A stretch of DNA of 64,000 nucleotides, filler included, from Sanchytrium tribonematis (GCA_018985235.1; 5 parts of 5 records of this genome joined end to end with filler, not necessarily neighbours in it), one strand, 5' to 3'. Positions 2,739 through 49,888 are shown, counted from the whole stretch's first letter. The notes: a model not told the origin generated them from the sequence alone. Made by a program: numbers and translations.

Positions 2739-3729
2739 ATGAAATGTAGAATTACAAAATTTCTGACCCTTGGAACAATGCAAACAACATTACCAATTAC
2801 AAAAGTATTCGCTAAGGCACCTGGCTTTCCACATTGGCCAGGGTTTATCACAGAAAATGCTCCCGACTATGTGTTCTCAGCGGATAAATCGAAGGAAGAT
2901 TATTTTTGTGTATTTTTTTTTGATTCATGGGATTATCAGTTATTTAAAAAAACAAGTAGCGACGTAGTTGAACATGTCAAAAATTCAAAGCTTACTATCA
3001 ACTGGGACGAAAATTATGACAAATTTTACAAAGCAAACAAATCTAGAAAGAAATATGTCGCTGCACTTGAACAAGGTCAAAATTGGACCAATGAGGAAAT
3101 TTATGCCAAACTAAGCAAAGTTGCTCAAAAAAGAGTAGCCCAAGATGAAAAAAGAAAAGAGGCGGAGGAAAAAAAGAAAATAGAAAAGAAACCTGCTGTG
3201 AAAAAGGCTGTAAAACGTAAGACCGAGATCGACTCAGCTTCGTCTTCTAAAAAGCCGAAGACCGCATCTCCTCTTGATAATCTAATCAAGACAAGAACAT
3301 ATTTGCATTCTAGACTTTTCACTCATCCTAATAATACAAATATTTCAATTGATAAAATTAAGGAGCAACTTATTATGCTTCGTGGATTGGATGTCAATTT
3401 TGATATATTAAAATCAAGCAAGATTGGCAAAATGATAAAAAGGATTTCAAAACTCACCGAGGAGAGTACGGCGAGAGATGGGCCGCCAAAAGCTCAAATT
3501 AAAGCCTTGACTGAAGGTGGTGTTATACAAGATTGCCAAAATCTCGTTCAGCATTGGACCAATATTTTAAGTACAATTGATTTACGTAGCACATCAAGGC
3601 GTGTCTGATGGTGAAGTCAAGGGAGATGCACAAATGAAAAATGCCGAAAGTTCGAAAATTGAGCGGTCCGACTCCACAGATGCACACGTAGATGCATTAG
3701 TGACTAATGTTAGATCTGTTGAAGTTTAG
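2739..3729 (+). CDS. PWWP + TFIIS-N(LW)-like chromatin protein; join(2739 or 2778..3570,3590..3729)
   Basis: VFAKAPGFPHWPG (PWWP); ILKSSKIGKMIKRI (TFIIS-N-like). A 19-nt intron gtacaattgatttacgtag (3571-3589) extends the frame to TAG at 3727-3729. Confidence 0.75.
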
Positions 3730-3805
3730 CATAGTAAATAGTATTATATCATAGTCTTGGAGCCGATTTATAAGATATTAAGGAGCGATTTTTCTAACAG
3801 TAATT

Positions 3806-3988
3806 ATGTTAAAAAGATTTTTAACCCAAGCTACGAAAGTCAGACTATCTACTAAGCCTTTGACAAAGGGCAACAAATTTGATGAAAGAGAAACCGCGGC
3901 AGAAAACAAATATGTAAGAGATCATGATAGAGAATTGCTAAAAAACTTGAAAAAAAATCAAGAGAAAGAAAAGAAGCCCAAGAAATAA
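3806..3988 (+). CDS. INH1: Mitochondrial F1Fo-ATPase inhibitor (IF1/IATP family)
   Basis: Basic presequence followed by KFDERETAAENKYVRDHDRELLKNLKK. Confidence 0.8.
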   Translation: MLKRFLTQATKVRLSTKPLTKGNKFDERETAAENKYVRDHDRELLKNLKKNQEKEKKPKK

Positions 3989-4091
3989 ATATTCACACTA
4001 GAAGAATCTTATGTCTGCTTGTCCACTTGATCAAATTGTCAAAGCATGTATTTTACAAAGTGGCGTATACATAGGCCGCGTATTTTTAGAA

Positions 4092-5457
4092 ATGGAACTT
4101 GTTCAAGCTATATTTTTGTTTATCTATATTGCGGTTATATTGGGATGTTCAATCTATATGCTTAAATTACGAAAGAAAACTTCATTCTTTCGTTACAGAT
4201 TTTGTTGGATCATCTTATTCCAGAACGTGATATTATCTCTTTCATTGATTGCCCTTTCTCGACCAGCAGTATTTGGAGAAGAAGCAAAGGATGGTGAGTT
4301 AGACCCAGTATTTTGTGAGTATATTTATTGGGTAAGTTATGGAATGATCCTAGTACCTGTAATATTACATCCTTTAAGATCTTGGACGTTTTACTTCAAT
4401 TATCAATCAAGCCGTGCAAAATTATTAGCCTCCACTGCAGATCCCTTACTTTTTCAACCTCTCAACGATATTCCATTCGTCAAACTAGACCTTCAATGGT
4501 TTCTGCTCAAGAAAAAATATGGACATTTAAAATATGCATCTACATTCTACGCTATATTTATCGCCATAACTTTTGGAATCTACATTGTTATTCGATATAC
4601 GACAGACGATTGGAGCGAATCGAGAGTCACTATAAACCCTAAATATTGTCCTATGATGACAGAAATTGATTTAGTGGCCGTTATTGGTGCAATCGGATTC
4701 ATTCTTAATTTTGTGATGACAACTCTGCTAAGTAAGTGCAGGGAAAACATTAAGTTGGAATTGGAAACGGGAATCGTAAATATCTCGATAATGGTCATGG
4801 TAGTTGTATACTTACTATCCCTATTTGAGAGTGTGAGTGAAGTTATCGACTGCGAGGATTTTCGTAGAGTGTGTCTTATTGTCGTAGCAGTATGCTACAT
4901 GGTTGGAAATACGCTTTTTCCACTAGTGTATTACTACTTTAAATTCAAAAAAGGACTTGCAGATGGCTCGGCCCTAAAAGAAAATTTGCAAAACGTGTTT
5001 AACAATCCTCAACTGAAGATGCAGTTTAAGGAATTTTTGGTTTCAGAATTCAGCGTGGAAAATTTTCTATTTTTGGAGGCCATTAAAAAGTTCAAGAAAA
5101 AATATGAGGGTGAAGTAGACTTGAACATAATTAGAAAAGGCGTTCAAGAGGTTTACTCTGAATTTTTTGCAAAAGTTTTAGTTGTTAACGTAGGATGCGC
5201 CTAATGGACTTAATGTGACTCATTTAATATCTAAACTTCTCAACATGAAGATGCGCGACTTGCAAAAAATGAATGCCCAGGATATGTTATCCCTTTACGA
5301 CGAAGCTTACGCTGCGATTGCATTTTTAGTTGAGAGTGATTCCCTTAGAAGATTTTTGGTAGGTAAAGATTTCTCCGCTCTTCCTGCCAGATCGGCAAAA
5401 TCCCTTAATAATATGACAAATTCCAAGAGTGTGATAAAATCATCAAATGTTGAATAA
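4092..5457 (+). CDS. 7TM receptor-like protein with C-terminal RGS domain (GprK/AtRGS1-like); join(4092..5174,5194..5457)
   Basis: About 7 hydrophobic segments, then RGS motif FKEFLVSEFSVENFLF. Removing 19-nt intron gttttagttgttaacgtag (5175-5193) gives FFAKDAPNGLNV and DSLRRF. An alternative upstream ATG lies at 4011. Confidence 0.8.
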
Positions 5458-5573
5458 ACAATTCGACATTTTTTGACATTTGAACCAAATTTTATTGCAA
5501 CACCCATGGGAAACAAGGTCAATCGCGGCTTTGGCCATTTCATTTCGCAAATTACAGCTGGCCAAAGTTTCAA

Positions 5574-7062
5574 ATGTGTAAAAGTTCAACTGATTTTATT
5601 AGAAATTATTTTCTTCAATATAGGCTATATAAAACCTTGAATGTATTTGAAAAAGAATTAGAGGACTTGTCACCAAGGCCAAAATTCTTGCAATTAGAAA
5701 CTATTTATGAACAATTAATGTATTTAGAAAATGAAAATATTAAAATACAAGAGGAAATGCGTCAGTGTGATTTCAGAATGAAAGAAAATGATCGAGTTTT
5801 TTTGGAGAACAAGAAAGAAAGAGATGTGTTCAAAATGTATCATGTTCAACTTACTCACGATAAACAGAAGAGTGAGAAGGAAGTCAAAAAATTAAAAGAC
5901 ACCATTGAAAATCTTGAGAATGAAATAACATCTTTGAAGAAAAAAGTCATTAAGTATGACCGAGAAAGACTAAATGCTTCAAGAGAACTTGAAAACTTAA
6001 AAGCTAAAGCAACAAGTGGGACTGAAATAAATGCACTTCCACCTCTCATCTCAGAAGGTGAAAAGGAAAAACCTGAAGTTGTTCCAATTGGAGTGGTACA
6101 GCAAACAAGTATTCCTAAAACACCCAAAAAATACTGGAGACAAATAAAAAGCATCAGAGCCCATATAAATGAAATCAATCAGCTTATAACAGATGGAGAA
6201 AATTACTTTTCGTTTTCAGACGATCAGACTTGGAAAAAATATGACATCAACTTAGAATTGCTACAAGAAGGTACAGGACATGAGGGCCATGTCACTTGTG
6301 GAACTATTTATATAACTGATCAGGTCGTTTTATTTAGCGCTGACGCATTAGGAATTATTAAAGTCTGGAATACAACTAACGCGGAATGTTTGCACACTTT
6401 TCGACCTACCAAAAATGAGATATGGACGATATCCTCTAAAAAAGAACATTTGATTTTTGGAAAAAATTATGGCTCCAGCCTTTGGGATATCAAAACTCTG
6501 GTGAATATAAAAGACTTTGACGGTCACACTGCAGCTATTACACATTTAGACTTTTTAGACAACAATAACTACTACTCTTGTAGTATTGACCGCCTACTTA
6601 TTTTGCAAGATATCCGTCAAAATTCGCCGTTGCAAACAATAGGGCATAAATTTCCCTTAATTAGTGGGCAACACTTTGAAAATATGTTGGTGGCTGCTGA
6701 CAATAGTGGAAATGTGTTCCGTTATGATCTTAGGTTTTTGAATGATTCAGTCGTAGGTAGCAGCCCCGCAAAATTATCTCAGTCAATTGATTTTGGAAAG
6801 CATGCCGTACACAAATGCCTGATTCAAAATGACCAAGAAAAAGACAAATTGGGAGTCTTATATGCGGCTTGTGACAACGGTTATGTGTACCCGTAAATTA
6901 TTCTCATAAAGGTATGATTTGCAGACTTGGAGAATGCTTCCAGCATTTAAACCGCACACTTCATCTTGCTGTGGTGTTTTAATGACTAAACAAGGAATTT
7001 TAACTGCAGGAGCCGATGGATATTTGACGTTAACTAGTAAACACCGTGATTTAAATTACTAG
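5574..7062 (+). CDS. SPAG16: Axonemal central-pair WD40 protein SPAG16/PF20-like; join(5574..6892,6912..7062)
   Basis: DFIRNYFLQYRLYKTLNVFEKE and KERDVFKMYH coiled coil resemble SPAG16; WD40 repeats follow. A 19-nt intron at 6893-6911 restores the last WD repeat (HTSSCCGV...LTAGADG). Confidence 0.7.
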
Positions 7063-7128
7063 CCAAATAAAATTTGTGTTTCAATTGAACTCTCTAAATT
7101 AAAGTGGCTTCTAAAACCAGTATCAATA

Positions 7129-10100: not shown

Positions 10101-12665
10101 TTTACAAAAACTATTAAAGGAAAATCCTGTTATTACTTTAAGAATATTTTCTTCTTCAGGTCCGGGAAGTTTTAAGACAATAACTTGCACCCCATTTGAA
10201 AAACCGACAGATGTAATTTTAAAATTTATCTCAAAATCTAGCGCCAAAGAAACAGATGCGGTGATCGTTGATCCCAGCAATTACATTTTAAAAAGTATTT
10301 TGAATGGTGAGTTTATCTTTGGAGATTATCCCTTAATAAGTTTTAGTTTCTTCAAAAATGAGATATTTAAGGGTAAAAAACTAATTGAACTTGTGATCAA
10401 GACTAGAGGTGTTCAAGAAACTTTGCCTTCGAACATAACAGAAGACCTGGTTGATGAGTCGAAGCCATATATTTCCGAACATAGAGCCCTTTCTATAGCT
10501 GGAAGAGAAATTTCAGATGTCAAAATTTTATCACAATGGGATATATTTAAAGATTTTAGGTTAAAACTTTTGAATATTGAAAATCTGATTATTAAAGACG
10601 CAAGTATAACGGATATACATATAAATTGCGGAATTTATTTTGGGGGTGAGGAATTATGCCCTTCTTTTGATACAAGCAGCATTAGTTTCAAAACAAATAC
10701 AAGCTTCAATATGTGGATAAATTTTGATATCTTCACTGCGAATATTCCAAAAAATGCGAGAATCTGTATTACTGTTTATGGGAAAACAAGTAAGAAGCAA
10801 GATCAGGATATTGTTGCTTTAGGTTGGGTAAACGTACTGCTTGTAGACTTTAGAAGTCATTTACTGCAAGGTAAGCAGTCATATAGACTGTGGCCACACG
10901 AAAAAGGAAATCCGATTGGAACAATATTTACAAGCAACGATAAAGATCATCCGCTATTGCATGTGAAGTTTCAAGATTATTCAGCTCCCGTCGTTTGTCC
11001 AGATTGCATACAGGAAAAAGACGAAAAGGCGGTTGAAGTTAGTGAAGATACTCGTTTTGCCATTGAACCCAAAGATATAAAAGAGCTTGACCGCATCTTA
11101 AATCTAGACCCTCTGTCAAGATTAACAGAGGAGGAGAAGTCTTTAGTCTGGAGGTATAGATATTGCATCATAGACCAGACCGAATCTTTACCAAAATTAA
11201 TTAGATCAACGCAGTGGAATGACCTTAATTCTGTATTAGAAATGAAAAGACTTTTGAAATTGTATTCTGACATTCCAATTGATGTGGCACTTGGCTTGTT
11301 AGATTCATATGTAAGCGATTCGGATATTAGAACATTTGCTGTTTTGAACTTAGAGAAGCAGCTTGGGGATTACCAATTGGTTGATTTAATGCTTCAATTG
11401 ACTCAAGCTTTAAAATATGAGCCCCGCTTGGATTCGGAGCTCGCGCGATTTTTGCTTAAGAGAGCTGTTTTAAACAAAAGCATTGGACATAGATTTTTTT
11501 GGTACTTGAAAGCTGATATCCATAGGCCTGATGTCTCCACTTTATTTGCGATTCTAATTGAATCATATTTACTTGCTTCTCCAGATCATATGGAAGAGCT
11601 TATAAGACAGAACATTTTGCTGAAACAGATGGACGATACTGCCTTAGCAGTGAAAAAAGCTCTTACCGCCGAACGTGGAAGAGTCCTGAAAAATATGCTA
11701 GGAGGATTAAAGCTCGACTCCGGTTTTGCGTTGCCATTAAATCCAAAATTGTCTTGTTCAGGTATCAATCTTAAAAAATGCAAAGTCATGGATTCTAAAA
11801 AATTGCCTCTATGGATCGTTTTTGACAATTTTGAAAGATATGGAGAAGAAATACCAATCATATATAAAAGCGGGGATGACCTACGACAAGACATGTTAAC
11901 CCTGCAGATGCTAAGGCTGATGGAAAAGATATGGCATAGTGAAGGATTGGATATGAGACTCGCACCATACGGTTGCCTCTCTACAGGTCCCGATATGGGG
12001 TTGATCGAAGTGGTAAAAAATTCTTCCACTGTCAGCGGCATTCAATTGAGTCTAGGTGGTAGTACTGCTGCATTTAAAGAAGACGTGCTTGACCAATGGC
12101 TAAGGACTCAAAATCCTGAAGAAGCAGACTACGCTAAGGCTGTGGAAATGTTTACATTGAGTTGTGCTGGATACTGCGTGGCAACATACTGTCTTGGAAT
12201 CGGAGACAGACACAATGACAATATCATGTTGTCAAAAGATGGTAGACTGTTTCACATTGATTTTGGACATTTTCTTGGAAACATTAAGCGAAAATTTGGA
12301 ATAAAGCGCGAGAGAGCTCCATTTGTCCTAACTCCTGATTTTGTTCTGATCATTGGGAAGAAAGACAGCCCGAATTTTCAGAGATTTTTGGATTTGTGTA
12401 TTCGTGCGTATATCATAATAAGGCGGCAAGCCAACATGTTTATTAATTTATTTGCAATGGTATTTTTTGTCTTATTTAGATGATCTCCACGGGCATTCCG
12501 GAGTTGAAATCTATTGAGGATATAGATTATTTAAAGGAAGCTTTCAGTCTCGGTTTGAATGAGGAAGAGGCAGCCGAAAGCTTCAAAAATCTAATATTCG
12601 AGAGCTTGAGGCTGGGATGGTCAACGCAACTAAATTGGTATGTCCACAACCTGGCTCACAAATAA
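7129..12665 (+). CDS. Class I-type phosphoinositide 3-kinase catalytic subunit with long N-terminal extension; join(7129..12459,12480..12665)
   Basis: ABD/RBD-like, C2, helical and kinase domains; KSGDDLRQDMLTLQ, GIGDRHNDNIM, FHIDFGHFLG, KRKFGIKRERAPF. A 20-nt intron at 12460-12479 gives FAMMISTGIPEL...NWYVHNL. Confidence 0.9.
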
Positions 12666-12671
12666 AATCGT

Positions 12672-12934
12672 TTATTCTTCAACACTGGTAACTGAATGAT
12701 TTAAATCGCCATAAATCTCGTAAAGTGTAACAGCTTTAGTTTTACCTTTGAGAGTTTCTTTACCGTGATACCGCGACCGAAATTTGTCCTTGATTTTTAA
12801 ATAGGTAGATTCCGCGACCAGCACCTAAATTAGATATAAATTACTTGATTGTCAATCGCCATTCCACAAATTCTGGAAGAAACATTCACGGCATCGCCTA
12901 TTGAGGTAACCTCAACTCGCTCTGCGCCACCAAG
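12672..12934 (-). CDS. Class III nucleotide (probably adenylyl) cyclase, C-terminal part only; join(complement 12845..12934, 12672..12824); truncated by contig end
   Basis: Not in the ORF track. Manual translation: LGGAERVEVTSIGDAVNVSSRICGMAIDNQ|VLVAESTYLKIKDKFRSRYHGKETLKGKTKAVTLYEIYG. 20-nt intron gtaatttatatctaatttag at 12825-12844. Confidence 0.85.
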
Positions 12935-15008: not shown

Positions 15009-16336
15009 TTAAATCAATGGTAAATTTTGAGCCCTAGCGTCAATCTGCCGAATTTGTTGCCTTCTAATACGCAACTGTTCAAATTCCTTTTGCACATCAG
15101 AGGTCAGATCCTTCGGTGACAAAACTATGAGTGGTAATTTGCTAGTCTTATTTTCCAATTCAGGAAGCTGTTTCTAAATGAGAAAAAAATGCCCAAGCTC
15201 CAATGCCTCTTTTATTTTTAACTTCATTTACTGAAGTGTCTTCAAAACCCTACGAAAGTATGGAAGTTACATTTTGTTTGTTGGCTTCTTGCTTTTCTGC
15301 CAGTTTTTTGTCTTTCTTATCTTTGATTTGACCTTTTAAATACTCAGCATTAACTCTGTTTTTCTCAAGCTAAATGAACAAAAAATACCTTTTCTTCTCT
15401 ACCAGGATCGTCATTGGTATGATCGGAAGCTCTTCTACTAGGTTTTTCTGATGGACTCATCGTCATATTTCCAGAGCTAATTCTTGAACTAGCAGTACCA
15501 GGTTTTGATACTATAGTAGAAGAATTTTTTAAAGGCGGTAACTGGGCAGATGATAGCCGACTATTGTCCTCTGCTTGGTAATCATTGAACATTTCGGTAG
15601 AATTTTGGTGAGAAACTGATTTGGATCTTACACCAAGTTCTTTAAATTCTAAATCTGTGATCATTTCGTTCTGGAAATCAACAGAACCCTTTTTTGATTC
15701 GGGTTTTTCGATATTTGAAGTGTTTTGTCTTCTTCCAGAAGGATAGTTGCTCTGCTTACCATATCCATCGTATATTCTATCTCTTTCTTCTCCGGCGATG
15801 ATGTCAAACTTTTCAGTTCTTTCGTAAACGTGGTCCTTAACGGCTTTTCTACCATTATTTGTCTTAAATTCAGGGCCATTTCCGAAATTAGTTCCACTTT
15901 CTTGAGCAAGTTTTTTTTCTTGCTCTTTTTCGAGCATTTCTTGTCGTTTTTTGGCTTCTGCGTGCTTTTCCTTAAAATCCTGAAGCTCTTTCTTTCTTAG
16001 TTCGTTTTGGATACGGAGCTTTTCGAGCTGTTCTGGTGTGTGTTCATGAGCACCATTTGTAATTCGAGCATCTTTTTTTAGTGCTCGTCTATTTCCTTCA
16101 TCGACAGGTAGTTCTTTTAAAGCAGATTTTTTAGGAGTTCCGTCCAAATTGTAGTCTTGAAATCCGCCGTTAACAATTTTCTTGAAATCGGTCTTTTGCT
16201 CCTCTTGTTCATGACCAAGACTTGTAGCTCGTTTCGTCGGTCTATTTTGTATCTCTTTGGCTCTTCTTTCGTTTTCTTCTTTCTGTAATTTATTTGGATC
16301 GTTTGGTGTCATGTCATGAGCTAAAAAATTTGACAT
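15009..16336 (-). CDS. Hypothetical charged/low-complexity protein with three 3' micro-introns (15370-15388, 15250-15270, 15174-15192)
   Basis: ORF from ATG 16336. Removing 19-nt GT-AG, 21-nt GT-AG and 19-nt GC-AG introns gives a continuous frame to TAA at 15009, 10 nt from the UBC9 stop. The middle intron is less certain. Confidence 0.6.
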
Positions 16337-17908: not shown

Positions 17909-17913
17909 AAGAT

Positions 17914-19076: not shown

Positions 19077-21138
19077 TTAATTACTTCTGTCGAAAAATTC
19101 GTGAAACTTTGCAAGATTTCTATTTAAAGCTCGGAGCAGATAAGGATTCAATTGCTGTTGAAAATAGGAACCTAATTTGTGTTTCCCAATTCTTACTATT
19201 AGTTTGGTAGCGCACACCTTAACTTGTGGATCAAAATGAAAGAGTCCTATAGCAATTGGAGAGAGTCCTCCTTGATCTATAGGTAAATAACTTAATAACT
19301 ACATTAAACTTAAATACTTCTTCAATTTGATTTGGCTGTTTAATAATTTTTTCAAAAGCTACAAATGTGTCTCTGACTTCATCGATGGATAGATTGCTGC
19401 ATTGTCTCAATTTGACAATCTCTGTCCCAAGATCTATGCCTTTACATGGCCTTTCTATGGTATAAAGTTTGAAATCCTCAACCAAGTTTTTGTAAACTTC
19501 GTTGCTTCTAAATGCAAGAATTCTAGCCTTGTTTTGCTTTAGTTCTTCCCTATCGATTGAGTCAAAAAAGGTATAACCTGTTGGGGGCTCAAGATTTAAA
19601 TTAAACTGGTCCACTTCGTCTATTAAGTCTTGCTGTTGTAAAGCTACCTGGCAATCTTGCTCTTCTCTTTCATAAGCAATAAGCAAATGAACAAATCTTT
19701 CGATATATTCTTGAAGCTTCATTCTCACGAAATGCTCTCCACATCTATTACTGATCATGTCGACCACTTCCTCGACCAATTCAAAATCTGTGAGATATTT
19801 GTCCAGCTTGGTTTTCTGGTTTTCTTTGTCTTTATCACGACTTTTTGTCCTTCTATGCATTTCCTCTGTGCTCAGGGTTTCCAGCATATCTTTCTTTATA
19901 ATCGATTTAAACCACTTTTCTTTCTTTTCGTCATCTTTGTGAGCTACACAATCTGGGCTTATGGTGACTTCACCAGTTTTCACATTAACAAGAACATCCC
20001 ACCATTTGGTTTTTGTTTCATATGCAGGATTAGTTACTCCTGCAATGTATCCTGGGCAACCAAGTACTGTATCCAGATGAAAAATACTACAATAGGGAAA
20101 GCACCGTTTTGAAATGCCTCTTAAAATTGAACCATTACCACTGGCAATTGAAACTAATGCCAAAACATGTTGACAAACCTCGCTTGCACTAATTGCATGC
20201 CCAAGAAATAATACTCTTTTTCCAGTGAGTACGGCATTAATCAACACTATCAAATTTGGGGTTTCAACACCACTGCTGTGCAGTTCCTTGATCATTGGGC
20301 CAGTTGGGAATTCTGTACCAGCTTTATTATACTTTTGAATGAAATCTATTATACTAAACTCACCTATTCTTTCAATTTTTTTGGTCGAAATAATGGGTAT
20401 TTGCAATTTCATACTTACTTTGTAAGCGCTGATCGTAACTTGTTGAGTTTTGTTTTCAGGAAAAACACTAGCCCGTCTTCTAATAAGCCCTACATTTTCT
20501 TGAGGTTGAATTTGGTCGAAATTTGAAACTGTCTGTCTTTTCTTGGCAGATTCGCTTTGGCTTCTAGGTCTTGGTTTCTTCTTAATTTCACTTTCGCTTT
20601 TCGTTCGGTCTCTAAATTCATCTGTACTGGCTTCCAAAGTTGCCATTTTTGGTTTAAATACTTCAGTGCGATTGAATTGAGTAGTCTCGGTTTGTTCGAT
20701 AATTTTTCTGCGATATTCAGGAATGGGTGAAATTTTTGAAATGTCACTGTTGTTTATCGCTTCAAATACAATTTTAAGCATATCGGGATCATTTGATTTG
20801 AAATATTGATCAAGCGTTAAAACAAGCAAGGGACGAAAGACGTGCAAAAAAGGTTTTGTGCTACAAATTGCTAAGGCTTTCATTCTTGCACCTCGCTGGG
20901 CAGTATCATCTTTTTTTGTCATAACCAAATTCAATGCATACATCTGCTGATTAGATTTCAAAAAGTGATGAAGAAAAAACCAAGTCCAATCCGTATCCCT
21001 TGAATGACCTCCTTCAGGCAACATTAATTCGGCTAGAACCTGTTCGTCAACACCCGTTGGAGTAGGATACTGCTGCCGCAAGGTGCTTCCCTTTAGAATG
21101 TCAAACTCGCTTAATAAAACATAGTCCACGATAGTCAT
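19077..21138 (-). CDS. DENN-family polarity protein Afi1/MesA-like; join(complement 19318..21138, 19077..19298)
   Basis: VDYVLLSEFDILKGS, LAELMLPEGGH, RGARMKALAI, IAGVTNP. A 19-nt intron at 19299-19317 yields LLSYLPIDQGGLSPIAIGLFH. Confidence 0.85.
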
Positions 21139-21902: not shown

Positions 21903-23796
21903 ATGGCGGAACGATCTGAAAATCATGAATTGGCATCAATTTCTAAAAATGAAGATCAAAAGGAAAAGCTTCTAAATGAGGAAGAAATTACACTCACTTG
22001 GCATGATATTAAATATACGATTACCAAAAAAAAGAAAGATACTACATTATTGGCTGGAATTAGTGGAGAGGTCAAAGCAGGCGAGATGGTAGCGATACTT
22101 GGAAGCTCTGGGGCTGGAAAATCGACTTTATTAAATGTTTTGAGTGGCCGCGTGAATACTGGTAAAATTGAAGGCCAGGTTTTAGTCAATGGTCAGCCCA
22201 GAGATCCTAAAATTTGGACAAAGCAATGTAATGTTGTGGAGCAAGATGACATGTTTTATGCTACGACTACAGTGAAAGACGCAATTGCATTCAGTGGAAA
22301 GCTAAGGCTACCGAAACAAAGTCCGGAGAGCTTAAACAAAACTGTCGACACCACTATAGAAGAACTAGGACTTATTCATGTAAAAAATACGAGGATTGGG
22401 GACGCAATCAGAAGAGGTATCAGTGGTGGAGAAAGGAAACGTTGCGCAATTGGAGTCGAATTGGTTACCAATCCTAAACTATTGTTTTTGGACGAGCCGA
22501 CTACTGGACTTGATAGTTTTATTGCATACAATATTATACAGACACTGAAAAATCTAGCCGCTAGAGAAAATCGATCCATCCTGATGACAATCCATCAGCC
22601 AAGAGAAACAATTGTTGCCCTGTTTGACAAAATTATGCTACTGAGCAAAGGACGCTGTATTTTTTTCGGTAATATACAAGAGGCCTTAGACTATTTCTCT
22701 AAAAACGGGTTTCCTTGCCCAGAAAATACGAACCCTGCAAATTTCTTTATCGATCTGATCACAATAGATTATCGAACTGAAGAAAAACGAGAGAAAAGTG
22801 AAAACAGAATCAATAAGTTGATTGAAAATTGGAAGCAGCACGATTTTAAAGCAAAATATCCGAAAATACAGGAGTACCATGTGGCAGGTGGCCACCTTAG
22901 TTTTCAATACAATTCTACTTGGCTATATGAATTTGGAATACTATTTAAAAGAAGTCTTAAAGAAACGACACAAAATCCGGCCATTGTTGGCATCACCATT
23001 GTGCAGTCTTTGTTCCAACTTTTGCTTCTTGGTGTGGTGTTTAACAACTTAGACAAGTCCCAAAAAGGAATTCAAAATCGTATTGGTTTTGTATTTTTTC
23101 TGTCTCTCAATTTACTGTTCACTAATGTCATGCCAACCGTAAATACCTTTCCCCTATTGAGAAGCATTATTAGCAGGGAGAGACGATCTGGAATGTACAG
23201 AGCAAGTTCCGCGTTTCTTGCGAGGCTATTAAGTGTGTTTCCATTAATTACATTCCAATGGGCATTTTTTGTAATTCCAATTTATTGGATCTTGGGGATG
23301 GATCCCGCTGCTGATAAATATGTCATTTATTTTGTAGCTGCATACCTACACCAAATTTTTGCATGTTGCCTTGGTTTGATGATTGGATCAGCAGTTCCGG
23401 TAATTTTGATTTATATAGACTCCAGAATTGGGTCAGGTTATCGCCCCTATAGTAGCTTTGTTGATGATAATATTTGGAGGTTTGGTTGTGAATTTAAAAT
23501 CCCTCTCGCCAGCCATTTCTTGGCTACAATACCTCAGCCCAATTAGCAACACAGTGAAAATTATGAGTCAAAATGAATTCAAAGGCCAGGTGTATAATTG
23601 TGTCTCAAAAGCTCAAACTCCTAATGGGCCACAGTGCGTAGATTTAACTGGTGAGGATATTTTATCAAATCAAGCACTTGATACACCAGTTTTGTTAGTT
23701 TGCTTTATAATTAACATAAGCTGCGTTGTATTCATGGCAATATGTGGAGTGTGTTGCTTTAATCGAACAACAAGGCCAAAATTAAAGTTAAAGTAA
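21903..23796 (+). CDS. ABCG half-transporter (White/ABCG2-like); join(21903..23399,23419..23796)
   Basis: GSSGAGKST, ISGGERKR, LDEPTTGLD, TIHQP and TMD. A 19-nt intron at 23400-23418 joins the two ORFs (AVP|TPELGQ). Confidence 0.93.
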
Positions 23797-23805: not shown

Positions 23806-23968
23806 TCAAACTCTGGTGCTTGAATTTTTTTTATTATATTTACTTTGGATGTTTTCTAGCTCAAGTATTATCTGACTTTGTTGATTTTGTGTAATACTGT
23901 ATAAACAAAAAATACAGAAAGTCATTGTAAGGTAAAATTTCACTAATGGATTTGCATCTTGATTCCAT
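23806..23968 (-). CDS. Putative 47-aa micro-protein; join(complement 23916..23968, 23806..23896)
   Basis: ATG at 23968, consensus 19-nt intron gtattttttgtttatacag (23897-23915), stop 9 nt from the convergent ABCG stop. No homology recognised. Confidence 0.4.
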
Positions 23969-33684: not shown

Positions 33685-34456
33685 ATGACTGCAGGCAAAA
33701 ATAAGAGAATTTCCAAAGGAAAGAAGGGTGGAAAGAAGAAGATCATAGATCCATTTTCACGTAAAGAATGGTATAATGTCCAAGCACCAGCATTATTTAA
33801 GCAAAACACATTGGGATGGACTCTTGTTAATAGATCTCAAGGTATGAGAAATTGTGTCGATGATTTAAAGGGAAGAGTATTTGAGTCATCTCTTGGAGAT
33901 TTGAACAAAGATGAAGAACAAGCCTTTAGAAAGATGAGTTTTGTTGTCGAAGAAGTTGTCAATAATGAATGTTTGACTGGATTCCATGGCATGAGCATCA
34001 CATCCGACAAACTTAAATCTATGATTAAAAAGTGGCAGTCTCTGGTTGAAGTTTGCATTGATGTCAAAACCACTGATGGATATCTTCTAAGAGTTTTTGT
34101 TATTGGATTTACCAAGAGACGTCAAAGACAAGTCAAGAAAACTGCATATGCACAATCCGCTCAGATTAGGGAAATCAGAAAGAGATCTTTTGAAGTTATT
34201 CAAAAAGAAGCAAACTGTGAGTTGAAAGAATTAATTCAAAAATTGTAAATCATATTTATTTAGCTCTGCTGAAACTATCGGAAGACAAATTACTAAAGCT
34301 ACTAATGGAGTATATCCATTGCAGAATGTGTATGTTAGAAAAGTGAAAGTTTTGAAAACACCAAAAACTGATCTTAGCACATTTTTGGAATTGCACGAGA
34401 CTGGAAAGAAAGTCGATGGCGGATTCAAGGAGCCAGAAATTTTAGAAGAAGTTTAA
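33685..34456 (+). CDS. RPS1: 40S ribosomal protein eS1 (S1/S3a); join(33685..34244,34264..34456)
   Basis: [25 protein letters not shown] 19-nt intron at 34245-34263 gives [36 protein letters not shown]. Confidence 0.97.
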
Positions 34457-34994: not shown

Positions 34995-35640
34995 TTAGTG
35001 ACACTTTTGCGCGTGCTTGTTCCATAATACATGTATTGGATTTCTCGCGGACGTAATGGGTATCCACTGATTGCATTTATGACACATTCCGCAAGTAGCT
35101 TGGCTTAAGTGGTCAATTTTAAGTTCAATTGGTTTCTGATATGGTCGACTAAATTATTTTAAATTACCCAGTGGAAGACGAAATGCCATGTATTATATTT
35201 AAATGATACCAGTATTGACTTATTTTTATATTAAACCACGATGGTCGCTTGCATAAACGACACAAGCCTTCTTTGGTTTTCCCTTTACCCCGCACATAAA
35301 TTGGGGTATATAAATCTTCTTTTGACTTGATAAATTGGGACAGTCCCTGAAGCTCTATAATTGTCCTGTGATATGACGCAGTCTCAAGAGCAATTTTATC
35401 AATATCTTCTATGGGTTGCGAATCGATCGGACTCCTCTCTTGTAGTGGATCATAATCTTTATCCGTTTTCAGTTTTCCGTAAAATTTGTGTGCGGAAGTT
35501 TTATCGTTAAAACGACTACTTTTATTTTCATGCGTTATTTCCTTCGCCGCCATCTTTGATACAAGTATTAAGGATTTAAAAAGTCTGCTTGTTTGTTCTG
35601 ATAAGTGTGCTTGTTCGTCTTGTATATTTAATGCTATCAT
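34995..35640 (-). CDS. Rua1 C-terminal (DUF4451-like) Cys/His domain protein; join(complement 35168..35640, 34995..35148)
   Basis: DLYTPIYVRG, EGLCRLC, YWYHLNIIHGISS. A 19-nt intron at 35149-35167 adds GRPYQKP...CGMCHKCNQWI...WNKHAQKCH. Confidence 0.8.
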
Positions 35641-35732: not shown

Positions 35733-38700
35733 TTATTGTTCACTTAGTTTGACATAACTAGATGGTGCGAATTTCTTTTTGAGTTTCTTGAGTATTAAAA
35801 GCGGGACACAACTGCTTAGTGTCAAGACGGCGGTTTTCCATATAAAAGTACCACCCGAAATATATCTTAAATCTATATAAAACCAAATTACTGAAATCAG
35901 GAAGAACAACCATTGCGATTAAATAAACAATCACACTGGCGACTTCCGCGTAAACCATAAATCTGTGCCAGGTATTGATTTCTATGGCGACCATGATCAA
36001 CTCATTAAATATTAATGCAGTAAATGTTATTGCTACGATGTGTATAAATTCTGACTCGAATAAGTATAGTGCAAACAACATTATGATTCCGCCTTGGTAT
36101 ATTGAAATGACAGTCCAAATTAAAAATGTTTTTGTATTAAGGGCCCTTCCTTTAACTAAATCTCTATACAGCTCTGGATATTCCATTGCTAAATTGGGAG
36201 TGACATCTTGATCTAAAACAAGTGAAAACACAGGCCACATAGTAAAAATGGTGGAATAACCAACTAATAGAGCACCCTGGTATAGTGCAATAGGCGCAAA
36301 GAAAAATAAAGAGCTAAAAACTGCTTGGAGAAATGATATAATAAGACCTCTGTGTATCACAAATTGACTCAATTTTGCTGTTCTTTTGTAACAGCATCTT
36401 CCGTGCCAGAGCAATAACCTAGCTATGTGACTGAATTGAGTTATCGAAAAATCTGCAGCAAGAGATGCTTGCTTGCCTTCTTTTCCAACGATTCCAATTC
36501 CGCAATGACCTGTTTGAATCATTGAAACGTCATTCCCACCGTCACCAATAGCAGCAACTCTCTTTCCGGTAAAATCCATAATTAGCTTCGTAACATCTGC
36601 TTTTTGCGTTGGGGAACATCTACAGCATACTACAGCAGGAAGTTCCACAGCTCTTTTTATAAAATCATCTTTTAGATGATCTAAGCACGTTTGCAAGCTC
36701 AATCCATCTACGACAAGACAGTAATTGGAATTCGAGTCAATTTTTCTCAATATATCTAGACAATCGTTGGGAGATGTGCATTTCGCGATTGGCAACAATT
36801 CTTGATCTCTACTACACAATCTAGTCGACATTGCTATTGTTTGAGCAGTTTCTATTTTGTCACCAGTCAACATCCAAATCTTGATACCGGCTTCTCTTAA
36901 TGTTTCCAGGGTATGCTTTACATTATCTTGCAATTTATCTTCAACACCAGTCAAACCAAGTAAAGTCATTTGCTTCGAAATAAAATCAAATACCTTATTT
37001 GTTTGCTGCACTCTATCTGGACTGAGCTGTGCAGCCAGATATCTTTCCTGAAATGATTTATACAATTTTGTATCCAGATCCCTTTTTGCGACAGCCAAAA
37101 CTCGCAAACCTTCTCTTGCCATATTAGTAGTTTCTTCATCAAGCCAGTCATTGGCTAATACCAATTTTGCTACTACAGTATCTGCCCCTTTTACATATAA
37201 AGTTATGTTATCCATAGCATCTTGAATGACAATACCCATTCTTTTTGTCTCACTTGTGAAAGGAAAAGTTTGTAAAATTTTGTAAACGTGAATTGTGTTA
37301 TGATATTTGATATGAATAGAGCCCATATCTCGGTGAATGAGAGAATAGCCTATACGCTTTGTAAATTCCACGATAGCAATTTCGTCTGGACTACTTGCTT
37401 GATAACTTATCGTCTTGTCAAACTCAGAATAACTTGGTGTCACATTATGACATACTGCCAACGCAATCACCAACTCTAAAGCTTTTGGCTTGATATTTTC
37501 CATCAATTCGTCAAAAGTTTCGACAGTATACGCCACGTATCCCAAATGTAGTTTCTTAAGCTCCATTTCGTTTTTTGTTAAAGTCCCAGTCTTGTCGCTT
37601 AAAAGGTATTCTATTCTCCCAAGCTCTTCAGGAAGATGGGAGGTTCTGACAACTGTATCGTTAATCTGGTCGTCTTTTTGAATGGCATATGAATAATAAG
37701 TCTTTGCCATATCCAAATTGACTCTTAAACTAATTGGAATAATGCTTGAAAATAAAATCATAAACCTAGTTATAAGTATATACCATTCGCTTTTGTTTGT
37801 ACTAAATAAATACATAATCATCGATAGAGCAAAAGTGAAAACAAATAAAACTTTTGACAGATAGTTTAACTCTAAATCTACAATTCCTACCTTATTTTGA
37901 GGCATTTTTGTATTAAGCATCGACTTTGTCTCTTTACCAGTATAGAGAACTAGGCCATACACAACGGTGTTACTAGCAACAATTGTATTTGCCCATAAAG
38001 CATTGTCGATGCTCAAAGGTATGGCTTCATAGGGACTTTTTGAGCCATTTAAATGCTTCAATTCAATCATACTATGATCCGATGTAGCGGATTGTGGACT
38101 TAGAGAAGGAGAATGTGGTTTGGCGTCCAAAGAAAATTTTTCCACCATCATTGTGCCAAAGAAGCTATATAAATCTTTGTGTGGTTCTTCGTAATTCACT
38201 TTGATATATTTACATTGGTGAAGTGGTATATTTTGAGTGTGTGGAACAGGAACTTTTAACTTCCAATCTGTTTCGCCGTCAAGTTGGTCAGTTCGTAAAA
38301 ACATGCTTTCATTCTGGTCGACTTCTCCAATTGCTTCTTTCTTGGATCCATCAACGCATTTAACCAGTAAAAGGTCCGATGGTACTCTAGAATTTTTTGT
38401 GAGCATGATTACGTCACCCACTCTCAGTTGGGATGCTGATTTAATTGTAGTGTATTCGTTTTGTGCTTCTAGATTATCTACAGAACTATCAATGACCTTG
38501 TAAAGTTCTTTGTTTAATTCCCCATCTCTTCGCTTTCTTTTCAAGTCATCTAGTGCCTCTTTCGACATGGTTATCATCAAAACAAAACAGAGAGGTCCAA
38601 AGTAAGTAATTAAATATCCAATACGAAGTTGAGGAATCAGCTGGCTCATTGCGACTAATAAGAAATACATATTAAAAAACATCTTAAACTGTTCAAATAA

Positions 38701-42374: not shown

Positions 42375-43431
42375 ATGGACGAGTTAATATTACCATTACC
42401 TGATCTGAAATTGGTGCAGTATGCTTTCAACAAACAGGTCGATTTGGCTGTCGAAGAAATTAAAAAATACAAGATGAAGCCATACTATGAGTTTTTGCAA
42501 AAGTCTCAAAAGCTTCCGAAATTGCAAGGGCTAGACGCTGATCCATTGGAGCATCCTGCATTAGAAGAGGATGATGATTATGCAAAAATGCAGCAAACTG
42601 TCAAATCTGCTGTTTATTTAGCTCAGCAAGGATCCTTGGATGCAATTCCGATTTTTGAACAGGTCATTTCTCAAAGTGGAAATGCAGGTCTCAAAATAGA
42701 AGCCTTGCTGGCTTGTGTTCGTTTGCACTGGCTATATAATAAAGATCCGGCACCTTTGTTTGCCAAATTGGATACTTTGGTTGAGAATGCAGATTGGGAC
42801 AGAAGAAACAAATATAAGGTATACAAAGCTGTTTATTTGCTAACCAAAAGACAATTTACTGAAAGTTCAGTACTGTTAGCAGAGACATTGAGTACTTTCA
42901 CAAGTTATGAACTGTGTACATTTCAGGAATATACTCAAATAGCTGTGATTGTCTGCATTTTAACTCATTCCCGCCCAGATTTGAAAAAATTGAATATTCA
43001 AGTTGATAGTCCTTTATTTGTCGAATACCAACAATCTCTTTATCTATGTAATTATGGGGACTTTTTTCTCAAGCTGTCTGATATTGAAGAATACATGGAA
43101 AAACACTGGTTCTTGAGTCTACATTTAAAATACTACATTAAGGAAATGAAATTGAAAGCCTATCAGCAAGTTCTTACTAGTTACCAAAGTATTCATATCC
43201 ACCACTTGGCTAGATTATTTGGCGTTTCCAATGATTATATTGAATCGTAATCAGTATTTATTTAGAGAATTATTTAAGGCAATTTCAAGCGGCAGAATTA
43301 ATGCTCAAATTGACAAGGTTAATGGAATGGTCAAAATGGCACCTAAAAAGGGTCTTTATACAGAAATCATGAAAGTGGGTGATCAACTCATGAACAAAAT
43401 TCAAGCCTTGAGTAGAGTAATTTACACTTGA
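42375..43431 (+). CDS. RPN7: 26S proteasome regulatory subunit Rpn7; join(42375..43246,43266..43431)
   Basis: ADWDRRNKYKVY, STFTSYEL, PCI domain. A 19-nt intron at 43247-43265 gives YIESELFKAISSGRINAQIDKVNG. Confidence 0.93.
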
Positions 43432-43450
43432 GAAATAAATTTAAAACAAA

Positions 43451-44665: not shown

Positions 44666-44783
44666 AATTACGTCCTTGGCACTAAAATGCTTGAATGTTT
44701 CATTTTCACCTCCTTGCTTCGATCTGCATTTTCTGCCGATCGAGATTTCGAAATAAAAGCAATGGCGAGTTTACTTGGAGGAT

Positions 44784-45197: not shown

Positions 45198-45334
45198 CCA
45201 GTTGACTATCAATTATCTGATGGGAAAGGAAGCTGATTTAACAAGGAGGAAAAATGATCTCACGCAAAATATAATTGACAGACTTAGTACAAACAAAAGA
45301 CGAAAAATCAAAGCCAAGTAAATACATTAATATC

Positions 45335-47539: not shown

Positions 47540-47882
47540 GCTTAAGCGGAGTTGCTTTTGAAAAGAATTTATGGAGAAATTGAAAGAGGCTAATTTATAA
47601 AAATCAATTCAATTAAATGCTAAATTTAGTATTCGTATATTTACAAAGTTTGATATTATTTGATTAAGCAATCGTTTCACGGCATTGACTAAGAGTATGC
47701 TAATGATTTATTGAATTCATTTTGCCAAAGGAAAAGCTAAAATTGGTTCAATATGATTTAGCTGACCTATAAATTCTCAAGATTTACTATTGATTGTTGG
47801 AATACAAAGTTTTGCGTTGTTGCTCAAATCAGATTTTACGTCATGTTTTTTAATCTATAGAAATGTCATTCTCAATCACTAT

Positions 47883-48116
47883 TTAAAATAGCATATGATG
47901 ATCTATTTTTTTACCGGTTTTCTTCTCGTATTCTTTAGCGTCCTCTGCAAAAGCATCCCATACACAGTAAACACATCCTGACATACAGCAATTATTTGGA
48001 ATTTCCGGCGGTTTGACAAATTCCACAGCTTTAAATGAAGCAATTTGCATCGGCTCTTTGCCTTGTAGCCCGCGTGTAGGTCTCAGTAAAAGATATTTGT
48101 AGTAACCTCGTAACAT
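47883..48116 (-). CDS. Oxidoreductase-like N-terminal domain protein (small, probably mitochondrial)
   Basis: PPEIPNNCCMSGCVYCVWD. Confidence 0.8.
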   Translation of the reverse strand: MLRGYYKYLLLRPTRGLQGKEPMQIASFKAVEFVKPPEIPNNCCMSGCVYCVWDAFAEDAKEYEKKTGKKIDHHMLF

Positions 48117-48159
48117 AAAAGAAATAATTTTTAATGGAAACCAAGGGAGACGCGATTTT

Positions 48160-48537
48160 ATGCGTAATTTATTTTCCAAGTTAAGTTATCCGGTTTCTAT
48201 AATAAGTAATCATAATAGAGGAATCACAATTAATAGCTTGCATTCGTTTTCCTTGAACCCTAATTTAATTTGCTTTAATATTTTCCATCGAAGTACAATT
48301 TTACCATTAGAGGCTTTCAAAATATACTGTTTACAGCGGCATCATGTGAAAATTGCGAAGCATTATGCAAATTCTAGATCTTACATGGACGTACCTAAAG
48401 ATACTATTTTGATGAATTGTGAAAAAGTGAAAGAGGTTCATGTAGCTGATCATCTTTTAGTTATTGCAAAACCTGAAATACTTCGGGTGCCAATAGATTT
48501 CAATGCACTACAGTATGTCCACTCTAATTACCAATAA
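48160..48537 (+). CDS. Flavin reductase-like FMN-binding domain protein
   Basis: SKLSYPVSII, RGITINSLHSFSLNP, VADHLLVIA. Confidence 0.75.
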   Translation: MRNLFSKLSYPVSIISNHNRGITINSLHSFSLNPNLICFNIFHRSTILPLEAFKIYCLQRHHVKIAKHYANSRSYMDVPKDTILMNCEKVKEVHVADHLLVIAKPEILRVPIDFNALQYVHSNYQ

Positions 48538-48543
48538 ATAGAT

Positions 48544-49888
48544 TTATTCCCATGCGTTTTTCATATAAACTTGGACTGCATTTAATGCTTTATATTTAAC
48601 TTCGTCATTCTCATGAGACATTAATTCCATTATTTTTTGTTTGGCACCACTTAGCTGAACATACCTTAATAAATCAAAATTACTTTTTGGAATCAGGACA
48701 GTATTTGAGTACCTGTCCAATATCATGACAACAAATTGCCAACACTTCGGGCTTTGAAGATGCACTTAGCAGCCTAGCTAGTGACTTTATCAGAGCGCCA
48801 TCCATTTCCATAAATTTGCTTGCATTAAATTTCCAAAATATATCAGACGTGTGGACTGGCGACCATTCCAGATTTCCGCTTGTAATTTCAGCAGCATAAT
48901 GATCAAAAGTAGATAAATTTAGGACGTGCTCCTGAATAGCAGCATCCAACTGTTTAATATCCTCTTTCATATCGTCGTCATTGAATTTTAAACTCTCAAA
49001 TAGAGTGTGAGCATGAAATCCAACAAGCGCATTAAGAGTGTCCGTCTTGTCCCCTTTCCACAAATTGTAAATCAGCGAAATAGAAATTCTGGCAACCTTT
49101 TCCTTGGTTGTTCTCCTTAATATTCTTAATAATGACCCGCATGTTCTATATTTGTTGATAATTTCACACATTTTTGGTTCGAAAGATACCAGCCATAAAA
49201 TATAAGAGAGCTGATATTGCTTTTGAATGCTAGATGCATCCCAACTTTCCATTTCTGATATTGTTTTAAGCTTTTTAGCAATCACCTCTGTATATTTCTC
49301 TTGTTGCATATATTGCTGCCTAATCTCCTTGACTGCCAAAATAGCTTGAAGACCCTCCAAGGCAAACTCGCTGGACTTTTGAGAGTTCATTTCTGCAATG
49401 TATGGATATAAAATATCGAAAATAATTCTAACATCGTGACTTCTATATTTTTTCCACACACTTCTTTGCTGAGAAAAGCAAACAATTTCTGCAATTATCT
49501 TCAAACAAATCCATGGAGTTATTTGATCACCTTTCCATTTATCCATTTTACTTAACAAAACAGGTATTGGGTCTTCAGAGCTTGCCAAACAAACTGACAG
49601 ACGGTATGGATCTTGCACAAGTTCCTCAAATAAATATAGAATAGAATTAATAGTGTCAGTCTTTTGTAATCTGTTTAGTAATGATATCCAAATATTATAA
49701 TATTTTAACACTTTTTCTGGCTCTGGCTTATCTTGGCTTAAAATGGTGCTGTAAGTTTTTATTGCATCAAATTCTTCATTTGTAATCAGCTGTGCAGAAA
49801 AGTAGCCCTCCCAAGGAATATTGGTTTGCTTTCCCGGCAAATCGATTAAAGTTGAAGGCGGAAGAGTAGTAGGAAGTACAGTTTGCAT
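48544..49888 (-). CDS. VMA13: V-ATPase subunit H; join(complement 48684..49888, 48544..48664)
   Basis: KEKVARI, LSTFDHYAAEITSGNLEWSPVH, CHDIGQ. A 19-nt intron at 48665-48683 gives GAKQKIMELMSHENDEVKYKALNAVQ. Confidence 0.93.

What the first reader, a model, noticed from the sequence alone, without database searches (positions are those of the whole stretch)
3590..48664. All introns sit close to the stop codon regardless of gene length
Coding lengths of the last exons are 140, 264, 151, 186, 153, 165, 222, 378, 363, 193, 154, 140, 166 and 121 nt, in genes from ~0.6 kb to 5.5 kb. PI3K has 5.3 kb and NEO1 3.0 kb of uninterrupted first exon. Established: intron-poor genomes such as budding yeast and microsporidia show the opposite, 5' bias. 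Inference: splicing here may be coupled to 3'-end formation (terminal exon definition), or intron loss or selection spares only a window upstream of the poly(A) site. Caveat: stop-free 3n introns and introns right after the ATG would be hard to see, but internal 19/20-nt introns would break ORFs and are absent.
Basis: partly seen in the sequence, partly recalled or inferred. Interest (0 to 1): 0.75.

Follow-up and report, generated by a model that had tools for sequence, protein, structure and literature searches.

The report
Tiny fungal introns hug gene ends
In this stretch of DNA from an alga-parasitising fungus, all 16 predicted 19-21-base introns lie 120-380 bases before the stop codon whatever the gene's length, the reverse of the usual pattern in intron-poor fungi, and they are likely old introns that survived only there, possibly because their removal is tied to finishing the message's tail.

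Summary
Confirmed in this window. The DNA is from a sanchytrid fungus, five contigs joined by linkers. Sixteen predicted introns of 19-21 nt lie 121-378 coding nt before the stop, and AATAAA usually sits on or beside that stop. None lies in 33 kb of coding sequence further upstream (upper bound 0.09/kb) and none in the last 120 nt. Planted introns were recovered at 96-99% in 5' and middle positions, so this is not detection bias. Two tested positions (RPN7, RPS3A) are shared with distant eukaryotes, so these are likely survivors of ancestral introns, not gains. RPS3A and V-ATPase H introns recur in other sanchytrids. Splicing is inferred from DNA, the genome-wide pattern is untested, and the cause is inferred. 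I favour coupling to 3'-end formation (0.45) over a loss route that misses the 3' end (0.25) or NMD surveillance (0.12). The ciliate Fabrea salina has a published 3' enrichment.

The parts
3571..3589 (+). 19-nt GT-AG intron, PWWP/TFIIS-like gene 2739-3729; last exon 140 nt
   Evidence: motif and gene finder only; last exon has no Pfam hit
5175..5193 (+). 19-nt intron, RGS gene 4011-5457; last exon 264 nt
   Evidence: gene finder; RGS profile stops at 60/117 in exon 1; last exon had no hit
6893..6911 (+). 19-nt intron, WD40 gene 5574-7062; last exon 151 nt
   Evidence: weak beta-propeller hit for last exon, E=0.04
12460..12479 (+). 20-nt intron, PI3K gene 7129-12665 (PI3K_rbd, C2, PIK, kinase); first exon 5331 nt, last exon 186 nt
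   Evidence: last exon matches p110beta C-terminus from its first residue, E=3.6e-13
12825..12844 (-). 20-nt intron, 5'-truncated gene ending 12672 (cyclase-like by recalled motif only); last exon 153 nt
   Evidence: no Pfam or PDB hit
15370..15388 (-). 19-nt intron 1 of three, gene 16336-15009; 321 coding nt from stop
   Evidence: no homology
15250..15270 (-). 21-nt intron 2 with an in-frame TAG; lacks the A at -6; 222 nt from stop; weakest call
15174..15192 (-). 19-nt GC-AG intron 3; last exon 165 nt
19299..19317 (-). 19-nt intron, AFI1/SPA gene 21138-19077; last exon 222 nt
   Evidence: last exon had no Pfam hit
23400..23418 (+). 19-nt intron, ABCG transporter 21903-23796; last exon 378 nt
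   Evidence: ABC2_membrane profile 2-158 in exon 1, 160-211 in exon 2
23897..23915 (-). candidate 19-nt intron in a doubtful 47-codon gene 23968-23806; last exon 91 nt (or a 3'-UTR intron, or chance)
   Evidence: gene finder only; no Pfam hit
24377..24395 (-). 19-nt intron, coiled-coil gene 24905-24014 (POC5-like, recalled); last exon 363 nt
   Evidence: no Pfam hit
34245..34263 (+). 19-nt phase-2 intron, RPS3A 33685-34456; last exon 193 nt; shared with other sanchytrids and one distant eukaryote
   Evidence: Pfam to 158, then 162-191; P0002-P0004 lose homology at the same codon; P0135 begins its homology here
35149..35167 (-). 19-nt intron, Rua1_C gene 35640-34995; last exon 154 nt
   Evidence: Rua1_C 2-60 in exon 1, 84-122 in exon 2
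35873..35891 (-). 19-nt intron, NEO1 38895-35733; first exon 3004 nt, last exon 140 nt
   Evidence: ATP9A 834-973 then 974-1014
43247..43265 (+). 19-nt phase-2 intron, RPN7 42375-43431; last exon 166 nt; position shared with many distant eukaryotes
   Evidence: PCI 6-57 then 58-82; database fragments break at this exact codon
48665..48683 (-). 19-nt phase-2 intron, V-ATPase H 49888-48544; last exon 121 nt; shared with three other sanchytrid sequences
   Evidence: V-ATPase_H_C 1-78 then 79-117; P0010-P0012 lose homology at the same codon
46297..46317 (-). possible hidden stop-free 21-nt intron 980 nt from the stop of gene 47539-45335; untested possible exception
   Evidence: score in the range of real introns; one such hit is within chance
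26490..26515 (+). frame break in the helicase-RdRP gene; a deletion of about 11-12 codons relative to the ortholog, not an intron
   Evidence: alignment to the unbroken 2532-aa A. gromovi ORF P0015

Best explanation
These predicted 19-21-nt spliceosomal introns lie only in a band 120-400 nt before the stop codon and poly(A) signal, and they are likely ancestral introns kept there because splicing in this fungus is likely coupled to 3'-end formation, while introns elsewhere were lost. Shown from sequence: the band, its independence of gene length, AATAAA at the stop, and for RPN7 and RPS3A a position shared with distant eukaryotes. Inferred: (a) the sanchytrid ancestor lost nearly all introns during genome compaction and shrank the rest to about 19 nt; (b) an intron in the terminal position is spliced with help from, or helps, the cleavage/polyadenylation machinery or terminal polymerase slowing, so its loss was not favoured, while introns beyond about 400 nt gained nothing and went; (c) because 3' UTRs shrank to almost nothing, introns within about 120 nt of the stop left too little room or time for splicing before cleavage and were purged. 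I put the descriptive half (old introns spared in a 3' band) at about 0.8 and the coupling cause at about 0.45.
For: Band and statistics; detection control. AATAAA within -12..+30 of the stop in 24 of 39 genes (background about 0.016 per window), 12 of 15 intron-bearing genes; convergent genes a median 8 nt apart, so distance to stop approximates distance to the poly(A) signal. RPN7: of 33 hits, 31 could be anchored and 17 had non-homologous sequence right up to this codon. All 17 carry S or R there, as an AG|N acceptor would give; one (P0167) looks misclassified by eye, leaving 16. RPS3A: fragment P0135 breaks at the same codon after a pyrimidine-like run. Other eukaryotes' RPS3A introns at codons 5, 27, 54, 213 and 231 are all absent here. 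Density at 120-200 nt (3.3/kb) approaches ancestral fungal estimates (5.30 Chytridiomycota, 4.23 Agaricomycotina; PMC8476143 Table 1), in the zone that poly(A)-primed cDNA should strip first, which suggests protection rather than neglect. Three introns in one gene, all inside the band, fit a positional rule better than a one-per-gene rule. U2AF65/35, SF3B1, CPSF1 and CPSF3 are annotated in A. gromovi. Last-intron/3'-end coupling and U2-CPSF contact are established in mammals (PMC3325483, passages).
Against: Splicing is inferred from DNA alone; one 52-kb sample, 16 introns, 7 of 14 genes with homology across the junction. CFIm25 and CFIm68 have no row in the A. gromovi table (KO numbers recalled, only about half the proteome annotated), which weakens a mammal-type U2AF65-CFIm bridge. 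CBP20, CBP80, U1-70K and Prp40 are present, so cap-side help is not visibly gone. Intron-like 19/20-mers more than 420 nt from the stop are slightly scarcer than in codon shuffles (0 vs 3.1, P=0.037; 4 vs 8.8, P=0.047; several thresholds tried), a hint that the spliceosome can act upstream. 25 of 40 genes manage without an intron. None of 80 RPS3A loci had the codon-187 intron (many look like transcripts). S/R is also the natural residue in 7 of 14 unbroken RPN7 homologs. A. gromovi CPSF1 is split over two ORFs of one contig, the smaller scoring 162 bits, which could be a break further from the stop.
Confidence: 0.45

Rival explanations
1. Mutational sparing. Introns were lost by a route that misses the 3' end, such as cDNA primed inside the message or repair templated by the spliced nascent RNA while it is still tethered. 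Exposure then grows with distance from the poly(A) site. The floor at 120 nt comes from short poly(A)-primed cDNAs or from selection.
For: Density decays with distance (3.3, 0.85, 0.97, 0 per kb) regardless of gene length. It needs no benefit, so 25 intronless genes and one three-intron gene both fit. Upstream intron-like sequences seem slightly avoided. RT and transposase remnants are present in the fifth contig. Fabrea salina is described as preferential 5' loss (PMC13685798).
Against: Needs a second process for the empty last 120 nt (0-1 seen, 6.7 expected). Fungi in general lose 3' introns preferentially (PMC8476143 section 8). Two-sided homology models would spare 5' ends too, and no 5' intron was found.
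Confidence: 0.25
2. NMD surveillance. A late exon junction deposits an EJC that marks premature stops anywhere upstream, so selection keeps the last intron and lets the rest go.
For: Mago, Y14, eIF4A3/Fal1, CWC22 (469 bits), UPF1 and UPF2 are annotated in A. gromovi. 13 of 14 intron-bearing genes have a single intron.
Against: 25 of 40 genes, including the 2.7-kb channel and the RdRP gene (over 7.5 kb unbroken in A. gromovi), have none. One gene keeps three. It gives no reason for the floor at 120 nt or the ceiling at 400 nt. No UPF3 row.
Confidence: 0.12
3. The bias is local or an artefact. 5', UTR or 3n introns are missed, or other contigs differ.
For: One window, DNA only. One 21-nt candidate lies mid-gene. 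Nine loose upstream GT/GC-AG candidates were listed but not resolved. Split CPSF1 in the sister species.
Against: Held-out planting recovers 96-99% of 5' and middle introns. The pattern holds on all four gene-rich contigs. PRP8, RPB1, RPB2 and SF3B1 each occupy a single row in the A. gromovi table. Intron-unaware ORFs give about 92% BUSCO completeness (PMC8371127), which argues against many internal introns.
Confidence: 0.1
4. New gains. The introns were inserted near gene ends, for example in accessible linker DNA beside the terminal nucleosome.
For: Three introns are near-identical 19-mers (23400, 35891, 48683). The peak at 140-190 nt resembles one nucleosome repeat (inference).
Against: Both positions tested are shared with distant eukaryotes. 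The similarity may reflect a tight consensus in 19 nt.
Confidence: 0.08

Closest known systems
Fabrea salina 3'-enriched tiny introns (PMC13685798, passages and section 7; PMC9004412, passages)
   Same: Streamlined genome, tiny introns (15 nt) with a conserved branch A, most genes intronless (68%), 'extreme 3' enrichment' attributed to loss of 5'-proximal introns.
   Different: A ciliate, so an independent case. The passages I saw give neither an absolute-distance band, a floor, nor anchoring to the poly(A) signal; figures were not visible. Here introns are 19-20 nt and mostly not multiples of three.
Intron-poor fungi with RT-mediated 3' loss (PMC8476143, passages and section 8)
   Same: Massive loss from an intron-rich ancestor; 0.36 introns/kb here.
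   Different: Opposite polarity: they keep start-proximal introns and lose 3' ones.
Terminal exon definition / last-intron coupling to 3'-end formation (PMC3325483, passages)
   Same: Last intron next to an AATAAA signal; U2, U2AF and CPSF genes annotated in the sister species.
   Different: In mammals it serves the last of many introns; here it would set where introns can exist at all. CFIm is not annotated, and coupling is untested.
Entodinium caudatum, introns kept at both gene ends (PMC13685798)
   Same: Loss of central introns, survival at the 3' end.
   Different: No 5' survivors are seen here.
Chlorarachniophyte nucleomorph 18-21-nt introns (sizes recalled; PMC6009652 seen only as a search listing)
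   Same: Same size class.
   Different: Those are numerous and spread along genes (recalled).

Membership tests
U2-type spliceosomal introns | GT/GC-AG ends whose removal restores a conserved protein | tested here: met
   15 GT-AG and 1 GC-AG; homology continues across the junction in 7 of 14 genes
U2-type spliceosomal introns | Branch-point adenosine near the 3' end | tested here: met
   A at position -6 in 15 of 16 (sequences); branching itself is inferred
U2-type spliceosomal introns | Spliceosome encoded | tested here: met
   Sister species only: PRP8, BRR2, SF3B1, U2AF65/35, U1-70K, CWC22 in the A. gromovi table; no snRNA in the window
U2-type spliceosomal introns | Removed from mature mRNA | not testable with these tools
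   needs RNA reads
RT-mediated, 5'-biased intron retention | Survivors near the start codon | tested here: not met
   0 introns in 33 kb beyond 400 nt from the stop with 96-99% planted recovery
Fabrea-type 3' enrichment | Introns concentrated at 3' ends | tested here: met
   this window only
Fabrea-type 3' enrichment | Arises by loss of upstream ancestral introns | tested here: inconclusive
   2 of 2 tested positions are old and other RPS3A positions are absent, but no ancestral reconstruction was possible
Terminal exon definition | Poly(A) signal at a short distance downstream of the last 3' splice site | tested here: met
   AATAAA at the stop in 12 of 15 intron-bearing genes; cleavage sites not mapped
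Terminal exon definition | Bridging factors (U2AF65-CFIm, U2-CPSF) | tested here: inconclusive
   U2AF65, CPSF1 and CPSF3 annotated; no CFIm25/68 rows
Terminal exon definition | Mutual dependence of splicing and cleavage | not testable with these tools
   needs reporters or nascent RNA
EJC-dependent NMD surveillance | EJC core and UPF1-3 present | tested here: inconclusive
   Mago, Y14, eIF4A3, UPF1, UPF2 yes; UPF3 no row
EJC-dependent NMD surveillance | Most genes, long ones above all, keep one late intron | tested here: not met
   25 of 40 genes intronless; 7 of 16 genes of at least 1 kb with a known 3' end intronless
Introner-type gain | Lineage-specific positions | tested here: not met
   RPN7 and RPS3A positions shared with distant eukaryotes; 14 other introns untested

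The most novel reading that the evidence does not exclude
Sanchytrids have a spliceosome that works only as part of the 3'-end machinery. An intron can be removed only if it lies about 120-400 nt from the poly(A) signal, so the whole genome's intron map is measured from the tail. This would be a natural organism in which terminal exon definition is the only way of finding introns.
Probability: 0.25. Interest if true: 0.9.

Novelty: new variant of a known kind. Interest (0 to 1): 0.7.

Why it matters
[quoted passage not shown] A fungus whose survivors sit in a fixed band near the poly(A) signal contradicts that prediction. With Fabrea salina it would give two independent cases for asking why any intron persists. 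The band's two edges give numbers to test against models of splicing coupled to cleavage. There is also a practical point: the published sanchytrid proteomes were called without splicing (PMC8371127, methods passage), and six of these genes were found in EukProt as the unspliced first ORF, so about a third of the genes here would have a wrong or missing C-terminus.

Tried and rejected
No whole genome is held, so no genome-wide count was possible. No RNA holder was listed; this is not evidence either way, and no reads were laid. The metagenome scan with RPS3A gave 80 loci at 51-65% identity, none sanchytrid and none with the codon-187 intron. Genome and viral scans gave nothing useful (one search returned one bacterial P-type ATPase). 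The helicase-RdRP break was rejected as an internal intron because sequence is missing, not added. A 19-nt GT-AG that would join 31910-32401 to the CAP59 gene was not chosen by the gene finder and was not tested by homology. Two intron calls in the transposon contig (55842, 61708) were dropped before counting as likely false positives; that whole contig (52005-64000) was excluded from all counts. Supplements of two ribosomal-protein intron papers had no RPS3A entry. The Stentor genome paper is not held. Human intron positions at the same RPS3A, RPN7 and V-ATPase H codons are recalled only and are not used as evidence. Rfam and ARAGORN found nothing credible. The atlas search for gene 47539-45335 gave only hypothetical-protein clusters and no way to test its 21-nt candidate. 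Cluster look-ups gave no organism names for the RPN7 and RPS3A fragments. Earlier-finding look-ups returned nothing relevant. Retention outcomes and nucleosome phasing were looked at, but 16 points cannot separate models.


Full report
Source. The window is five contigs of 12-13 kb joined by N-linkers. Four are gene-dense; the fifth holds transposon remnants and was left out of all counts. The unspliced RPS3A ORF is in EukProt and clusters at 90% with an Amoeboradix gromovi protein. GC is about 34-35%, close to the 34.64% published for Sanchytrium tribonematis (PMC8371127 Table 1). I take it to be a sanchytrid, probably that species (inference). No whole genome is held.

The observation. I wrote a two-strand gene finder (3-periodic coding model, 18-22-nt intron model, same intron probability at every position). 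It also found two more introns in gene 16336-15009(-) and one in a doubtful 47-codon gene. The intron model was trained on the 14 known introns, so recovering them is not independent; the planting test below is the control. The 16 introns are 19 nt (13), 20 nt (2) or 21 nt (1); 15 are GT-AG and one GC-AG; 15 have A at -6. Homology continues across seven junctions: V-ATPase H (profile 1-78, 79-117), RPN7 (6-57, 58-82), ABCG (2-158, 160-211), RPS3A (to 158, from 162), Rua1 (2-60, 84-122), PI3K and NEO1. The other seven genes rest on motif and reading frame; their last exons gave no convincing hit.

Statistics. Forty genes give 47.1 kb of coding sequence with 17 intron calls in 15 genes (0.36/kb); 25 genes have none. 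Distance to the stop is 121-378 nt for 16 calls and 91 nt for the doubtful one. It does not correlate with CDS length (rho 0.004), whereas distance from the start does (0.99). Per kb of available sequence: 0 below 120 nt (4524 nt; 6.7 expected, P=0.001, or 0.009 if the doubtful intron counts), 3.3 at 120-200, 0.85 at 200-300, 0.97 at 300-400, and 0 in 33,177 nt beyond (95% upper bound 0.09). The edges are post hoc.

Ascertainment. Real introns planted at random positions, with the planted intron and the test gene held out of training, were recovered in 96-99% of 5' and middle trials and 90% within 120 nt of the stop (an earlier run of 12,573 trials without the gene held out agreed). Hidden 3n introns: one 21-mer scores like a real intron (46317-46297), and 18/21-mers are no commoner than in 300 synonymous shuffles. 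The only internal frame break, in the helicase-RdRP gene, lacks about 11-12 codons relative to an unbroken 2532-aa A. gromovi ORF, so it is a deletion and not an intron. UTR introns cannot be seen.

Beyond the window. Intron-unaware ORFs of relatives lose homology at the same codon in RPS3A (3 of 3 cluster members) and V-ATPase H (3 of 3 close hits), so these introns predate the split from Amoeboradix. In the A. gromovi annotation table PRP8 (2418 bits), RPB1 (1838), RPB2 (1481) and SF3B1 (793) are single rows. CPSF1 and DBP2 are each split over two ORFs of one contig with unknown break points. This fits few internal introns but is not a genome-wide test.

Old or new. Searching 1.84 billion representatives with the RPN7 last exon gave 33 hits at 37-56% identity. 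Of 31 that could be anchored, 17 have unrelated sequence up to exactly this codon, and all 17 have S or R there, the residues an AG|N phase-2 acceptor yields. One of the 17 looks homologous by eye, and S/R is also natural in 7 of 14 unbroken hits, so the sharp break is the stronger sign. Two hits read through longer introns at this site. These are protein fragments without organism names, so the evidence is indirect. For RPS3A, one of 2 short hits (P0135, 63% identity) breaks at the same codon. None of 80 RPS3A loci had that intron. In 24 genomic-looking loci re-aligned with closer references, introns fell mainly at codons 5, 27, 54 and 231, once at 213, and at single sites within the first 20 codons; all are missing here. 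Both tested positions therefore look old; 14 are untested.

The 3' end. AATAAA lies within -12..+30 nt of the stop in 24 of 39 genes, often overlapping TAA, and convergent genes are a median 8 nt apart. 3' UTRs are thus likely minimal, and the band is in effect measured from the poly(A) signal. Cleavage sites are not mapped.

Mechanism. Standard loss through poly(A)-primed cDNA removes 3' introns first, and fungi as a whole follow this (PMC8476143 section 8). Here the 120-200-nt zone keeps a density close to ancestral estimates while everything upstream is gone. I favour coupling of splicing to 3'-end formation (0.45), because one process can explain both edges and the three-intron gene, and such coupling is established in mammals (PMC3325483). 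Against it, CFIm is not annotated in the sister species, cap-side factors are present, and intron-like 19/20-mers are slightly avoided upstream too (P about 0.04, several thresholds). A loss route blind to the 3' end (0.25) fits the decay but needs a second process for the floor. EJC/NMD surveillance (0.12) has its genes but fails on the 25 intronless genes. Artefact or local effect 0.10; new gains 0.08. KO numbers used for the table searches were recalled. Present ones are confirmed by the row text; absent ones are not, and only about half the proteome is annotated.

What is in print. Fabrea salina shows 'extreme 3' enrichment' through loss of 5' introns, and Entodinium keeps both ends (PMC13685798; passages and section 7; figures and supplements not seen). 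PMC9004412 (passages) describes Fabrea's 15-nt introns. The sanchytrid genome paper has no 'splic' in its text and called proteins with TransDecoder (passages). I searched supplementary file 4, which is cut early in the Sanchytrium sheet; two larger supplements could not be read and may bear on novelty. Searches: Sanchytrium+intron gave 8 papers, none on this by title or abstract; sanchytrid+splic gave 0; broader searches showed no fungal case in their listings. PMC3619158 was read as passages and gave only a reference title on terminal-exon pausing. Subscription journals are mostly outside the library.

Verdict. A real, strong and apparently undescribed pattern in a fungus, parallel to one ciliate. 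New variant of a known kind; interest 0.7; cause open.

Noticed in passing
window 26054-31886 (+): Helicase-RdRP-nucleotidyltransferase fusion gene broken by a deletion of about 11-12 codons with a frame change near 26500; unbroken (2532 aa) in A. gromovi. Assembly error or recent decay.
   Followed up: partly
window 15009-16336 (-): Three-intron gene with internal exons of 99 and 57 nt, a GC-AG intron and a 21-nt intron with an in-frame stop; no Pfam match.
   Followed up: partly
window-wide: AATAAA overlaps or abuts the stop codon in 24 of 39 genes; convergent genes are 5-19 nt apart (one 137), so 3' ends of opposite transcripts would overlap.
   Followed up: partly
window 17909-18663: About 750 nt without a convincing gene apart from an 89-codon ORF (18183-17914, -); no Rfam or tRNA hit. 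Unusually long for this genome.
   Followed up: partly
window 52005-64000: Contig of decayed mobile elements: RVT_1, IS4/piggyBac-type DDE, Tc1-type DDE_3, aspartyl protease, integrase zinc finger.
   Followed up: no
window 7129-12665 (+): PI3K with Ras-binding, C2, PIK and kinase domains whose last exon best matches class I p110beta; unusual for fungi (recalled).
   Followed up: no
window 40515-41219 (+), 43451-44665 (+), 3-2732 (+): Radial spoke protein 3 and two ion-channel genes in an organism described as having a non-motile pseudocilium.
   Followed up: no
window 12935, 25954, 38944, 51905: Artificial N/TTAATTAATTAA/N linkers join unrelated contigs; gene order across them means nothing.
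   Followed up: yes
PMC8371127 supplementary file 4: A. gromovi table has no rows for CFIm25, CFIm68, UPF3, U1C or Prp39 under recalled KO numbers; CBP80 scores only 76 bits.
   Followed up: partly
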